64,000 bases of DNA from Cenarchaeum sp. (GTDB taxonomy: Archaea > Thermoproteota > Nitrososphaeria > Nitrososphaerales > Nitrosopumilaceae). The stretch lies in contig CBDESU010000001.1 in the NCBI GenBank assembly GCA_965242695.1, positions 1 through 64,000 of the forward strand, in the 5' to 3' direction. Numbering within the stretch: position 1 is the first letter of the stretch; every line of letters begins with the position of its first letter. Below the pieces are notes generated by a model. The model was not told the DNA's origin, searched no databases, and saw only the letters and a list, made by a program, of their open reading frames with translations. Made by a program: the position numbers and the translations under genes. This document shows, piece by piece, positions 15,674 to 38,538 of this stretch.

Positions 15674-15919
15674 GGGCCGGCGCCAAGATGCTTCAGTAAT
15701 AAGCATCGCGCGGGGCGGCGGCGATGCCTGGCATCAGGACGGGGCGGATCGAGGCCGCGCCCGCATCTGACCGCGCCCGGACCTGGGCCGGCCACATGGA
15801 GGAGAACCTTGTGGGCTGCGGTTCAGGGTGCCGCGTAGCGGAACCTGATGCTGGCGATCGGGGCGGCCCGGCCGCGCCTGCCACCGCTGCCGGCGGGCCA
15901 CCGCCTGCCGCGATCCGGA

Positions 15920-16528
15920 TCACGTATGTCGCCTGCCGAGGTCGACCACGCGGACGCCGAACACCTTGAGGATCATATCTGCAAACGACACAAAGTCGTG
16001 GTCGAACGTGAGCAGCTCGACCGCAACACCCCGTTCTGCCCAGTATGCCGCCGTCGAGAGTATGAGATGGTCCCCCTCGTTTGCCTCCAGGGTGGGCCGC
16101 GTTGCCTTTTTCTCGCGCTTTTCCTTGACGCGACGCCATGCGCCTACCGCGTCGGCCATCCGCGGGTCGTCCCATGCGGTCTTGTACGTGTCGCCGACCT
16201 TCCCTGCGTACTCTCCGCGGTCTTCAATTCCGAAGCGCCCGTGTAGCGATTCGGATATTTCCAGCACCGCCTTTACGACTTCTTCCCTTGCGTAGTGCGG
16301 GGCGTTCGCCGACCTTGCCGCCGACTCGACGGCCCATGCCGCGTTCTCGCGAACCTCGGCTGCGACCCTATCCGGGATCGCCAGCGCTCCCGACTCTGCC
16401 GCGCCGTCCACAGCGGCCACCGCGGCCTCCCGGTTGTGGCGCCGCACCCTGACGATCTGCCCGTCCTCCCTCCTAGCGTCAAAGTCGATAGCGTACGTGA
16501 GGATTACATTCGCATCTGCGATTTTCAC
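15920..16528 (-). CDS. PIN-domain ribonuclease (copy 1, intact)
   Basis: IADANVI (D-x-N), AEVREN, GDHLILSTA, LLTFDHDF (D-x-D) match the PIN acidic tetrad; GTG start overlaps the upstream TGA (GTGA). Confidence 0.85.
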   Translation of the reverse strand: MKIADANVILTYAIDFDARREDGQIVRVRRHNREAAVAAVDGAAESGALAIPDRVAAEVRENAAWAVESAARSANAPHYAREEVVKAVLEISESLHGRFGIEDRGEYAGKVGDTYKTAWDDPRMADAVGAWRRVKEKREKKATRPTLEANEGDHLILSTAAYWAERGVAVELLTFDHDFVSFADMILKVFGVRVVDLGRRHT

Positions 16529-17937
16529 GACTCCGATATCACCTTGAGCATGTCGCGGGCAGCTTTTTCGGCCTCTACCCTGTCCCACTTGAAGTTCGGT
16601 CCATCCTCCCTGGCCTCTGCTATGCCCCTTGACCTGCAGTATCCGACGAACAGCGCGTACATGTCCTGGATGTCGGGGTACGGCGGGCCCAGCGCATACG
16701 TCCTCGGATGCGGCCTCTGGTCGAACACGACGAGCGAGCACAGAGACAGCATGTCCCCCGCCAAGGCGGCCGCGACGGCCCACTGCTCGCCTGGCGCATC
16801 GCGCGCCTGCGAGAGCATGTCGGGTATGCGCCTGGCCATGTGCACTGCCGGGATCGCATGCACTTCGCCGAACGCAATGCCGTTGCCGATCTCGCGCTTT
16901 ATGCGCTCGGCCGTCCCCTTCAGCCCCTCCAGCACTGCGGCGCGTCCGCCGCCTCCGCCTCCATCGCCGTCGAACGCGGGCGCCGCGCCCGCGCCGCAGG
17001 CCTCTTCCAGGGCGGCATACGCGCCGATCCGGGCCACGCGGCGCGACGATGCGGCGATGCGGGATGAGATGCCGCCCTCCTTGTCCAGCCGCTCGCCTAG
17101 CCTGCCGATCATGTCGATTCCCCTGTCGGTAAGGTCGTAGTAGTAGGGCCGCTCGCAGAGGATGCTGTAACCTAGGATGACATCTTCGACGACAAGGTGG
17201 TGGAACCTCTCCATGTCTGCCCCCAGCCCCGCGCAGCCGGGCAGGCGCGACCCCGACGGCGCGTACAGGTCCAGCCCGCACTCGGCCTGCACGAGCAGCG
17301 ATGCGGCGCCGAGCTCGGCCCTCGAGCGCACGGTCCCAGATGCCGAGATCACGGACATTGGAAGGATCAGGCGGAGGGGGACGGTGGCGGGATCGAGCTG
17401 CCGCGGGTCCGGCCGCATGCCGGCCTCGAGCGCGCGGGGGACGTGGTAGGGATCTAGCTTGCATGCCCGCGCCCGCGCCTCTGCCGACTCTTCGCGGCGG
17501 CCGAGGTGATCTAGCACCCTTGCCATGTCGAGCTGGGAGCCGGAATGCCCCGGCTCCTCGTCGGCCAGGTCGCGGTACAGCGCCTCCGCCTCTTCGTACC
17601 TGCCCAGCCGCTCGAGCATGCGCGCGCGGTTGTCGGCGCGGCGGCCTCCGAAATGGTCGCGCGGGGGCGGGTTGGGGAGGAGCTTTTCAAGGGCCCTGCG
17701 GTACCCGCCGTACTCGATGCCCTCGCGTATGCCGTACAGGTTGTGCCTGGGGTCGTACCTGCTCAGTATGTCGTGAATGGTGGTCAGGAAAGGGACGGAC
17801 ATGTAATCGTCGACCAGATCTTGGTCGAGTAGACTGCGCGAGCCCGCGTCCTCGCGCTCCTGCCCCTGCCGAGTCGCCGTAGCCGACCCGCCTTTCTTGG
17901 CCTCTGTCTTGCGCACCTGTTCTACCTCTTGTGCCAA
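16525..17937 (-). CDS. TPR + winged-helix-like protein (470 aa), putative PIN partner (copy 1)
   Basis: TPR pair (RARMLERLGRYEEAEALY, MARVLDHLGRREES); YYYDLTDRG wing-like motif; TTG start about 25 nt behind aaagacTTAAg. Confidence 0.75.
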   Translation of the reverse strand: MAQEVEQVRKTEAKKGGSATATRQGQEREDAGSRSLLDQDLVDDYMSVPFLTTIHDILSRYDPRHNLYGIREGIEYGGYRRALEKLLPNPPPRDHFGGRRADNRARMLERLGRYEEAEALYRDLADEEPGHSGSQLDMARVLDHLGRREESAEARARACKLDPYHVPRALEAGMRPDPRQLDPATVPLRLILPMSVISASGTVRSRAELGAASLLVQAECGLDLYAPSGSRLPGCAGLGADMERFHHLVVEDVILGYSILCERPYYYDLTDRGIDMIGRLGERLDKEGGISSRIAASSRRVARIGAYAALEEACGAGAAPAFDGDGGGGGGRAAVLEGLKGTAERIKREIGNGIAFGEVHAIPAVHMARRIPDMLSQARDAPGEQWAVAAALAGDMLSLCSLVVFDQRPHPRTYALGPPYPDIQDMYALFVGYCRSRGIAEAREDGPNFKWDRVEAEKAARDMLKVISES

Positions 17938-36133: not shown

Positions 36134-36739
36134 TCACGTATGCCGCCTGCCGAGGTCGACGACGCGGACGCCGAACACCTTGAGGATCATACCTGCAAAC
36201 GACACAAAGTCGTGGTCGAACGTGATCAGCTCGACCGCAACGCCCCGTTCTGCCCAGTATGCAGCCGTCGAGAGTATGAGATGGTCCCCCTCGTTTGCCT
36301 CCAGGGTGGGCCGCGTTGCCCTTTTCCCTCGCTTCTCCTTGACGCGACGCCATGCGCCTATCGCGTCGGCCATCTTGGGGTCGTCCCATGCGGTCTTGTA
36401 CATGCCGCCGACCCTCCCTGTGTGATCCTTGCGGTCTGATGCGAAAGCGCCCGTGCAACGATTCGGATATTTCCAGCACCGCCTTTACGACTTCCTCCCT
36501 TGCGTAGTGCGGCGATTCGCCGACCTTGCCGCCGACTCGACGGCCCCCTCCGCAACCCTGCGAACCTCGGCTGCGGCCACATCCGGGATCCTGAGTGTGC
36601 CCGACTCTGCCGCGCCGTCCACTGCGGCCACCGCGGCCTCCCGGTTGTGGCGCCGCACCCTGACTATCTGCCCGTCCTCCCCCCTCGCGTCAAAGTCGAT
36701 GGCGTACGTGAGGATTACATTCGCATCTACGATTTTCAC
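36134..36739 (-). pseudogene. PIN-domain ribonuclease copy 2, two frameshifts (~36515 and ~36435)
   Basis: IVDANVILTYAIDF in ORF 36485..36799, middle part in the frame of 35700..36479, C-terminus in 36134..36403. Confidence 0.75.
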
Positions 36740-38148
36740 GGCTCCGATATCACCTTGATCATGTCGCGGGTTATCTCTTCGGGAGTCGCGTCGGCCCACC
36801 TGCTCCTTGACATGCCCTCCCAGACGTCAGCTATGCCCCTTGACCTGCAGTATCCGACGAACAGCGCGTACAGGTCCTGGATGTCGGGGTACGGAGGGCC
36901 CAGCGCGGGAGCCCTAGGATGCGGCCTCTGGCCGAACACGACTAGCGAGCACAGGGACAGCATGTCCCTCGCCAGGGCGGCTGCGTCGGCCCACTGCTCG
37001 CCTGGCGCATCGCGCGCCTGCGAGAGCATGTCGGGTATGCGCGTGGCCTTGGATTCCAGCAGGCTAGCGTGACTTTCGCCGAACGTGATGCCGATCCCGA
37101 TCTCGCGCTTCATGCGCTCGGCCGTCCCCTTCAGCCCCTCCAGCACTGCGGCGCGCTTGCTGTCTCCGTCCACGTCGTCGTCGACCGCCGCCGCTGCGGC
37201 TGCACTACAGGCCTCCTCCAGTACGTCGTACGCGCCGATCCGTGCCGCGCGGCGCGACGATGCGGCGATGCGGGATGCGATGCCGCCCTCCTTGTCCAGC
37301 CGCTCGCCGAGACTGCCGATCATGTCGATTCCCCTGTCGGTAAGGTCGTAGTAGTAGGGCCGCTCGTAGAAGTCGTTGTAGTACGGGAGGATGTCCTCGA
37401 CGACAAGGTGGTGGAACCTCCCCGTGTCGGCCCCCAGCCCCGCGCAGCCGGGCAGGCGCGACCCCGACGGCGCGTACAGGTCCAGCCCGCACTCGGCCTG
37501 CACCAGCAGCGATGCGGCTCCGAGCTCGGCCCTCGAGCGCATAGTCCCCGCGGCCGAGATCACGGACATTGGAAGGATCAGGCGGAGGGGGACGGTGGCG
37601 GGATCGAGCTGCCGCGGATCCGGCCGCATGCCGGCCTCGAATGCGCGGGCGGCGTGGTAGGGATCCAGCTTGCAAGCCCGCGCCAGCGCCTCTGCCGACT
37701 CTTCGCGGCGCCCAAGTTGCTCTAGCACCCTTGCCATGTCGAGCTGGGACTCTGTGTTTCCTTCCAACTCGTAGGCCACGCCGCGGTACAGCGCCTCTGC
37801 CTCCTCGTACCTGCCCAGGCGCTCGAGCATGCGCGCGCGGTTGTCTTCGATGCGGCCCCCGAAATGGTCGCGCGGGGGAGGGTTGGGGAGGAGCTTTTCA
37901 AGGGCCCTGCGGTACCCGCCGTGCTCGATGCCCTCGTATATGCCGCGCATGTTGTGCCTCGGGTCGCACTTGCACAGTATCTCATGGACGGTGTTCACGC
38001 AGGGGGCGAACAGGTATTCGTCGACCAGATCCTAGTCGAGTAGATCGCGCGAGCCCGCGTCCTCGCACTCCTGCTCCTGCCGGGCCCCCGCCGGCCCGCC
38101 GCCGTCCTTGGGCCCCGTCCCACGCACCTGCTCAACCTCTTGCGCCAA
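36736..38148 (-). pseudogene. TPR + wHTH-like protein copy 2 with one in-frame TAG (38032-38034); 36736..37998 is open
   Basis: Same 1413-nt length as copy 1; the copy-1 Gln codon (CAA) corresponds to TAG here. Confidence 0.75.
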
Positions 38149-38538
38149 CGCGCCGTCCCAGACGCCTCCCCGCTTAAGCCTTTTCGTGGGGGCCGCCGGC
38201 GCGCGGTCCACCGCGTGCAGCGGCCGCCCCCGCCAGCATGCCGGTCCCTGTCCCCGCCCACATGCCCGACCGCCGCAGCCTTGGACGCCCTGCCGCGCAC
38301 CTGCGCCGGCTGCCGCGTGGCCGGCCTGGGTCCCTCCGCGGCAGGCCCTTCGTCCTTGTTGACGCAACCTGCGCCGGCTGCCGCGTGGCCGGCCTGGGGC
38401 CCTCGCCAGCCGACCTCTCGGTGCCAGTGCTACCGGGGCGGGCGGAAGGGGCGGGTACGGTACGCATCTGGGGCCTACTCCCAGCGACGGCGCCTAGGCG
38501 CCCCTCCTAGGGGCAGGCGATCGAGCCCCTAGGTATTC

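What the first reader, a model, noticed from the sequence alone, without database searches (positions are those of the whole stretch)
15917..38310. Giant surface-protein gene bracketed by direct repeats of a TPR-wHTH + PIN module
Seen: a ~2.2-kb module (promoter, 470-codon TPR protein, coupled PIN nuclease) occurs at 15917-18123 and again at 36131-38310 in the same orientation, enclosing only the 17-kb surface-protein gene. The layout resembles a composite transposon, but the flanks encode a TA-like pair and no transposase. Inference: recombination between the flanks could excise, amplify or swap the ~20-kb cassette among loci carrying the same module, while a PIN toxin could penalise cassette loss. 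That would be a toxin-guarded surface-variation cassette; I do not recognise it as a described system.
Basis: partly seen in the sequence, partly recalled or inferred. Interest (0 to 1): 0.85.

Follow-up and report, generated by a model that had tools for sequence, protein, structure and literature searches.

The report
Duplicated nuclease operon around giant gene
A giant surface-protein gene of a sponge-associated archaeon lies between two diverged copies of a two-gene, likely toxin-antitoxin operon that has 14 copies in this genome; the two copies have likely exchanged some DNA, but nothing tested shows the gene being cut out, amplified or guarded.

Summary
Copies at 15917-18123 and 36131-38309 are 86% identical, point the same way and enclose one 5,679-codon surface-protein gene. 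Short-read contigs from four runs bridge three of the four junctions. Predicted folds support TPR + winged helix and a VapC-like PIN.

The cassette reading is mostly unsupported. The module has 14 copies at 7 loci, mostly local tandem duplicates, and no other locus of it brackets a giant gene. The right-hand copy is broken in this strain. The two copies in a sister species have no giant gene within about 20 kb. A crossover between the flanks would leave a hybrid module behind, so loss need not be penalised.

The whole 22.8-kb block is missing at the same site in two congeneric genomes, and the right copy carries a likely gene-conversion tract from the left copy.

The new part is the module: an unnamed winged-helix/helical + PIN operon, single-copy in a few related archaea, here TPR-fused and amplified. 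Toxicity and binding are untested. The scan's index showed no earlier finding on this sequence.

The parts
15920..16528 (-). Copy 1 PIN gene, 202 aa, open; acidic residues D5, E58, D153, D176, D178
16525..17937 (-). Copy 1 partner gene, 470 aa: disordered N-terminus, TPR 67-174, winged helix 184-289, C-terminal helical bundle; stop overlaps the PIN start (GTGA)
17962..17974 (-). BRE/TATA-like box of copy 1 (label recalled); conservation across all 14 copies begins here
18818..18829 (+). G12 tract upstream of the giant gene; an in-frame TAG (18872-18874) lies between it and the ATG
   Evidence: run X7 lacks 3 bases here
18917..35956 (+). Giant surface-protein gene, 5,679 aa: NHL repeats, about 128-aa stalk repeats, CFI-box-CTERM tail
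36134..36739 (-). Copy 2 PIN gene, frameshifted in this strain (1-bp and 2-bp deletions near 36515 and 36438; TAA at 36485-36487)
36179..36232 (-). Minimum likely gene-conversion tract: copy 2 carries copy-1 alleles at 10 of 12 sites where run X7's copy 2 differs (the two others, 36161 and 36226, are private to this copy)
36736..38148 (-). Copy 2 partner gene, 79% aa identical to copy 1 over the open part, with TAG at codon 39 (38032-38034); 420 codons downstream stay open
38173..38185 (-). BRE/TATA-like box of copy 2
15700..38510 (.). Whole 22.8-kb block, absent at the orthologous site (upstream of the 16S promoter) in genomes G004 and G002

Best explanation
The two flanks are sister paralogs of a lineage-expanded, likely toxin-antitoxin operon (TPR-winged-helix partner plus a predicted VapC-like PIN ribonuclease), and the giant gene most likely came to lie between them when this genomic island grew, without the pair acting as the ends of a mobile cassette. 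Shown: 14 copies at 7 loci, local tandem duplication as the usual mode, decay of single copies, gain of the block relative to congeners. Inferred: the module arrived at the pre-rRNA spacer after the split from G004 and duplicated locally; a giant gene settled in the spacer; the copies then diverged and occasionally converted each other; one or the other is decaying in different strains. Inferred function: the partner binds and silences the PIN and may repress the promoter, and release of the PIN would cut RNA under stress or infection.
For: 14 copies at 7 loci on C1: 5 in tandem, three local pairs counting this one, three singles. Each local group is its own closest relative: m01/m02 87%, m04/m05 89%, m07/m08 95%, m10-14 92-95%, against about 70-78% between most groups. 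TPR dS between the flanks is 0.24, below the 0.31-0.53 of 5 ortholog pairs between G000 and G004. The module comes and goes alone: m03's site is empty in G004 (gap about 170 bp vs 2,320 bp) and G004's copy A site is empty in G000 (about 60 bp vs 2,440 bp). A related giant gene also occupies different sites alone: G004 C2 about 1219-1227 kb is empty in G000 and lacks these modules. 7 of 68 giant ORFs are bracketed by a direct repeat vs 7 of 150 random intervals. The same operon without TPR is single-copy in G085, G163, G303 and G321 (profile match 99.5%). In G000 and G004, 3 of 16 PINs and 1 of 16 partner genes are broken, and the broken partner sits with a broken PIN. Patchy presence and decay are typical of chromosomal TA systems (PMC7167474, passages).
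Against: The order of events is not shown: no genome was found with a tandem pair, or a single module, at this site without the giant gene. The module's loci are somewhat enriched near giant genes: 5 of 6 other loci lie within 7.5 kb of an ORF >=1,500 aa (P 0.013-0.037; 4 of 6, P 0.034-0.067, for giants of this repeat family; threshold chosen after seeing the data), and it ranks at the top of 13 multi-copy families. A second giant gene sits inside an array of another winged-helix + PIN module. Against strict toxicity: G321 has a split partner with an open PIN and G349 a PIN with no partner hit in its 3.3-kb locus. Other assemblies/420-aa partners beside 202-aa PINs (paired by equal contig length; may be start-codon choice).
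Confidence: 0.65

Rival explanations
1. One-off Campbell-type capture: incoming DNA carrying a module copy plus the giant gene integrated by homologous recombination into a resident module, giving module-giant-module, now largely frozen.
For: Explains direct repeats that end at promoter and stop codon and enclose only the giant gene. The giant gene has no close relative in G001-G004 (best 32%) or in G000 (parts about 25-50%). Copies recombine: mosaic tandem array, 76 same-partition neighbours vs 23 expected, maximum 40 in 10,000 shuffles. A second giant lies in a PIN-module array.
Against: Integration would need a donor module close enough to recombine, and no donor or single-copy pre-integration site was found. 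A related giant gene occupies a site with no such module. Bracketing of giants is near background.
Confidence: 0.2
2. One reading: an active, toxin-guarded surface-variation cassette that excises, amplifies or swaps by recombination between the flanks.
For: Block absent in two congeners; conversion between flanks; identical runs up to 74 bp remain; variable segments differ between the two pairs, so some hybrids could be mismatched. TA loci are reported to stabilise superintegron arrays (PMC7167474, passage citing Szekeres 2007).
Against: No single-copy remnant at the empty site. Flanks have diverged to dS 0.24. Both flanks are present in 4 of 4 runs laid, with similar contig depths (X1 flank 80, block pieces 76-100; weak evidence). 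0 of 6 other loci bracket a giant gene. Copy 2's PIN is broken here, while copy 1's PIN has a 1-bp deletion in run X7 and truncated forms P0067 and P0248 exist. A crossover leaves a hybrid pair in place.
Confidence: 0.07
3. On function only: the pair is a sensor-gated defence nuclease or a regulator with a non-toxic nuclease rather than a classical addiction-type TA system; the TPR and variable loops would sense a trigger.
For: The partner is unusually large (470 aa) with a TPR added only in this lineage. dN/dS 0.3-0.6 for partner genes and up to 0.9-1.8 for PINs among tandem copies. PINs without an intact partner exist. TPR-PIN fusions occur in G261 and G179.
Against: No PADLOC match for 8 proteins tested; no relative confirmed in viral contigs; broken-gene asymmetry in G000 and G004 fits a TA pair.
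Confidence: 0.3
4. Misassembly or chimera of strains.
For: The assembly's two contigs overlap here and differ by one 384-bp repeat unit and about 0.4% substitutions in places. The copy 2-rRNA junction is not bridged in listed contig pieces.
Against: Copies differ by 14%; independent short-read contigs bridge three junctions; copy-1-like and copy-2-like proteins occur in other assemblies.
Confidence: 0.02

Closest known systems
VapBC / PIN-domain type II toxin-antitoxin systems (PAE0151 2fe1, FitAB 2bsq, Shigella VapC 5ecw)
   Same: PIN fold with a conserved acidic set; partner gene first, 4-nt start/stop overlap; patchy distribution and decay
   Different: PIN is 202 aa with insertions; partner is a 470-aa TPR-winged-helix-helical protein, not a small VapB (AbrB/RHH/HTH type, recalled); toxicity and binding untested
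Panacea (PanA, DUF4065/SocA, PF13274) antitoxins and the DarG C-terminal region
   Same: TPR-less relatives carry an RLQKxxFLxQ...YxF...YGPYS-like motif; two weakly match NCBIfam DarG positions 187 onward (E 4.6e-4 and 2.5e-3); an Atlas cluster with 20% SocA_Panacea members is a low-rank lead (0.83)
   Different: No PF13274 match to the module or its relatives; the GP motif (GPV in PanA, PMC8832971 passage) is degenerate in the TPR-fused copies; extra C-terminal helical bundle
Composite transposons / IS-flanked translocatable units (recalled)
   Same: Direct repeats flanking a passenger gene; block absent in relatives
   Different: No transposase, no terminal inverted repeats or target duplication seen; flanks only 86% identical; no other passenger bracketed by this module
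TA-stabilised genomic arrays and islands (Vibrio superintegron, SXT mosAT; PMC7167474 passage)
   Same: TA-like pairs inside a variable island
   Different: No integrase or att sites seen; the flanks are themselves potential deletion substrates, and a crossover would leave a pair behind

Membership tests
PIN/VapC nuclease | PIN fold | tested here: met
   Model pLDDT 92; top Foldseek hits are VapC/FitB/PAE0151, probability about 1.0 but E>=0.001; 8 of 27 aligned members match PF01850 at E<=0.05, best 8.4e-5
PIN/VapC nuclease | Conserved acidic active-site set | tested here: met
   E58, D153, D176, D178 invariant in 27 rows; D5 present in all rows that reach the N-terminus; assignment to catalytic roles is recalled
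Type II toxin-antitoxin system | Conserved two-gene operon, coupled | tested here: met
   16 of 16 copies in G000 and G004 are paired; same pair in G085, G163, G303, G321; G349 and G196 PINs had no partner hit
Type II toxin-antitoxin system | Toxin inhibits growth, antitoxin rescues | not testable with these tools
   needs expression test
Type II toxin-antitoxin system | Direct protein-protein complex | not tested
Panacea (PF13274) antitoxin | Match to the PF13274 profile at its cut-off | tested here: not met
   No hit at module loci in G000, G004 or G085; the profile finds a different gene in G000 and G004; no hit on P0144, P0146, P0217 or L038
Panacea (PF13274) antitoxin | GPV-type motif | tested here: inconclusive
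   YGPYS in TPR-less relatives; aligned position reads LPGCA in this family
Composite transposon | Transposase in the flanking repeats | tested here: not met
   Flanks hold only the TPR-wHTH and PIN genes
Composite transposon | Terminal inverted repeats and target-site duplication | tested here: inconclusive
   None seen in the 14-copy alignment or at three empty sites, but spacers have diverged enough to erase old ones
Composite transposon | Same passenger at more than one site, or empty and filled alleles within a population | tested here: inconclusive
   Empty in two other species; filled in 4 of 4 runs laid, which were chosen as holders; hybrid joints could not be displayed

The most novel reading that the evidence does not exclude
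In this archaeal lineage, multi-copy winged-helix + PIN operons serve as transposase-free recombination handles: giant surface genes enter, move and leave by homologous recombination between module copies, and diverged toxin/antitoxin specificities make some deletion hybrids lethal, so the array both captures and retains surface-protein genes.
Probability: 0.1. Interest if true: 0.75.

Novelty: new variant of a known kind. Interest (0 to 1): 0.35.

Why it matters
The layout itself looks like a by-product of island growth in a genome full of tandem accessory families, so it is a caution against reading direct repeats as cassette ends. The module is the useful result: an unnamed PIN operon with a winged-helix partner, sparse and single-copy in related archaea, that gained a TPR domain and expanded to 14 diverging, recombining copies in one sponge-associated lineage. 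That set would let one test how toxin-antitoxin specificity diversifies after duplication. If the novel case were true, it would give archaea a transposase-free route for shuffling surface proteins.

Tried and rejected
Hybrid junction or circle: could not be displayed, because the read-laying tool takes 20,000 bases and the copies are offset by about 20,200; all runs laid were contigs, which drop rare variants. No RNA holder was listed, which says nothing on expression. Complex prediction of partner with PIN was not available. Synteny in G004 was unresolvable for 4 of 7 G000 loci; m09's site and G004 copy B's site hold other cargo in the sister genome. PADLOC: 0 families for 8 proteins. The fold search of the whole 470-aa model was dominated by TPR; the C-terminal bundle (330-470) was not folded alone, so its fold is unassigned. 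Panacea membership was considered and rejected on the profile test. A poly-G frame switch for this giant gene was considered and not supported, as an in-frame stop follows the tract. Literature: 'Cenarchaeum + PIN domain + TPR' gave 0 papers; five-term flanking-repeat search gave 2 unrelated listings; searches listed no description of this operon. The library lacks most subscription papers, and supplementary tables (arCOG or TA lists) were not read. 'Cenarchaeum' was my own guess at the genus for searching; no call names it.
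Full report
Setting. The window is bases 1-64,000 of contig C1 of a 3.89-Mb, 67-68% GC assembly with archaeal 16S and 23S genes at 38741-43409. Runs holding the locus include sponge metagenomes. Earlier scan notes call the organism an ammonia-oxidising archaeon; I did not test that.

Observation. The repeat is real: 15917-18123 vs 36131-38309, 86% over 2,210 columns, enclosing one 5,679-aa ORF with NHL repeats, about 128-aa stalk repeats and a CFI-box-CTERM tail. 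Short-read contigs bridge flank-copy 1 in 4 of 4 runs laid, copy 1-spacer or giant gene in 3 of 4, and giant gene-copy 2 in 4 of 4. The copy 2-rRNA side is not bridged in the listed pieces. The end of contig C2 independently covers copy 1 and the first 9.8 kb of the giant gene, with one extra 384-bp repeat unit.

The module. Conservation among copies starts at a BRE/TATA-like box and ends at the second gene's stop. Gene 1 (470 aa) models as TPR 67-174, winged helix 184-289 and a helical bundle. Gene 2 (202 aa) models as a PIN with VapC-type neighbours (no hit at E<=0.001) and invariant acidic residues. Residues 185-466 of gene 1 are homologous to TPR-less proteins of about 280 aa (99.5% profile probability). 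These sit directly upstream of the same PIN family in G085, G163, G303 and G321. The PIN was found in 8 of 300 other family genomes, and the full TPR form in 1 of 40 relatives, G004. The TPR-less forms carry a YGPYS-like motif and weakly match the DarG C-terminal region, but PF13274 does not match. So the partner may work like a Panacea-type antitoxin but is not a member by the profile test. A more distant subfamily of the pair also occurs in G000 and G004.

Copy number and state. G000 has 14 copies at 7 loci. Local groups are monophyletic, and the window pair are sisters at 87%. 13 of 14 partner genes and 12 of 14 PINs are open. The window's copy 2 is broken in both genes, m10 has a late stop in its PIN, and 1 of G004's 2 PINs has a stop. 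Other strains differ: run X7 shows insertions at both copy-2 PIN deletion sites and a 1-bp deletion in copy 1's PIN, and the protein collection holds full-length copy-2 pairs and truncated copy-1 PINs.

Comparative test. In G004 (16S 98%) the gene left of the block lies about 390 bp from the 16S promoter region, and G002 is likewise empty; no single module remains. Flank dS (0.24) is below species dS (0.31-0.53 for 5 genes), which fits a gain after the split. The module is also gained or lost alone: m03 is absent from G004 and G004's copy A from G000. Two further sites hold other cargo, and 4 of 7 G000 loci had no resolvable synteny. No terminal repeats or target duplications were seen.

Link to giant genes. 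No other locus of this module brackets a giant gene, and G004's two copies have no ORF >=900 aa within about 20 kb. Against my reading, 5 of 6 other loci lie within 7.5 kb of an ORF >=1,500 aa (P 0.013-0.037, post hoc), and the family tops 13 multi-copy families on this measure. A second giant gene lies inside an array of a different winged-helix + PIN module. However, its closest G004 relative sits at another site, empty in G000 and without those modules. Overall 7 of 68 giants are bracketed by a direct repeat vs 7 of 150 random intervals. This fits shared use of plastic islands better than a cassette design.

Recombination. The five-copy array is mosaic (76 vs 23 expected adjacent same-partition sites). 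At the 3' end of copy 2, this strain has copy-1 alleles at 10 of 12 sites where X7's copy 2 differs. Two groups of copy-2 PINs from other assemblies share the non-copy-1 residues, which points to conversion from copy 1 (direction inferred; some copy-2 alleles persist inside the tract). The contigs carrying these alleles run from the unique giant-gene end in 3 runs, so the tract is unlikely to be an assembly chimera. Exchange between flanks therefore happens, but deletion, circles or amplification were not seen and could not be directly displayed. Contig depths across block and flank are similar, which is weak evidence.

Guard logic (inference). A crossover removes the giant gene plus one module-equivalent and leaves a hybrid operon. 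A penalty needs a toxic PIN and non-cross-reactive partners, and would arise only for crossovers between the specificity regions. Neither condition is shown. Strain-dependent loss of either PIN, a split partner beside an open PIN in G321, and a partnerless PIN in G349 argue against strong addiction.

Literature seen. PMC8832971 and PMC10440598: passages on Panacea's definition, the GPV motif and PIN toxins. PMC7167474: passages on patchy, decaying chromosomal TA systems and superintegron stabilisation. PMC7848895: passages; its abstract reports TA enrichment in sponge Thaumarchaeota while its results say no overall enrichment. PMC6697440: passages. All other papers were seen as search listings only. 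My searches found no description of this operon; supplements were not read.

Verdict. Real structure, probably an ordinary origin. The module is a new variant of a PIN toxin-antitoxin-like pair. The toxin-guarded cassette remains possible but unlikely. Interest 0.35.

Noticed in passing
G000 C1:1013500-1030127 (L025): A 2,628-aa CFI-box giant gene lies inside a tandem array of a different, divergently oriented winged-helix-like (192 aa) + PIN (about 170 aa) module, copies 85-90% identical.
   Followed up: partly
L054/L055 (G004 C2 about 1219-1227 kb) vs G000 C2:1351328-1351610: A giant gene 75% identical to G000 C1:1018319-1026205 occupies a site that is empty in G000, so giant genes change position between species; both versions have poly-G runs near the start.
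   Followed up: partly
window 23635-25104 vs C2 1670456-1675135: The overlapping end of contig C2 has one more 384-bp repeat unit in the giant gene than C1: repeat-number variation or an assembly slip.
   Followed up: partly
window 18818-18829: G12 tract upstream of the giant gene, 3 bases shorter in run X7; followed by an in-frame stop and a 52-bp imperfect duplication (18841-18892, 18923-18974).
   Followed up: partly
G000 C1:1327118-1338332 (L028): Five tandem module copies are mosaics of two or more allele blocks, with PIN dN/dS up to 1.8 in one pair.
   Followed up: partly
L031:6887-9133, L030, L021, L022: A second, more distant subfamily of the TPR-wHTH + PIN operon in G000 and G004; one G004 member has an extra N-terminal domain of about 200 aa.
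   Followed up: partly
L062:1348-3291, L063:1351-3282: About 645-aa TPR-PIN fusion ORFs in two GC-rich family members (G261, G179).
   Followed up: no
L040, L041, L042: Short relatives of the winged-helix domain lie directly downstream of HD-motif hydrolase-like genes in three other genomes of the order.
   Followed up: no
window 14958-15706: Gene with a weak pRiA4b ORF-3-like match just left of the block; conserved in G004.
   Followed up: partly
window 51488-54755: A 3.26-kb segment occurs at 99.4-99.7% identity at three other places on C1 and partly on C2: a likely recent mobile element, not examined.
   Followed up: no
L011/L012 (G004 C2 about 277.2-279.7 kb): G004's module copy A lies about 400 bp from a tRNA gene whose G000 counterpart is tRNA-Gly(TCC); no tRNA-end duplication was seen.
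   Followed up: partly
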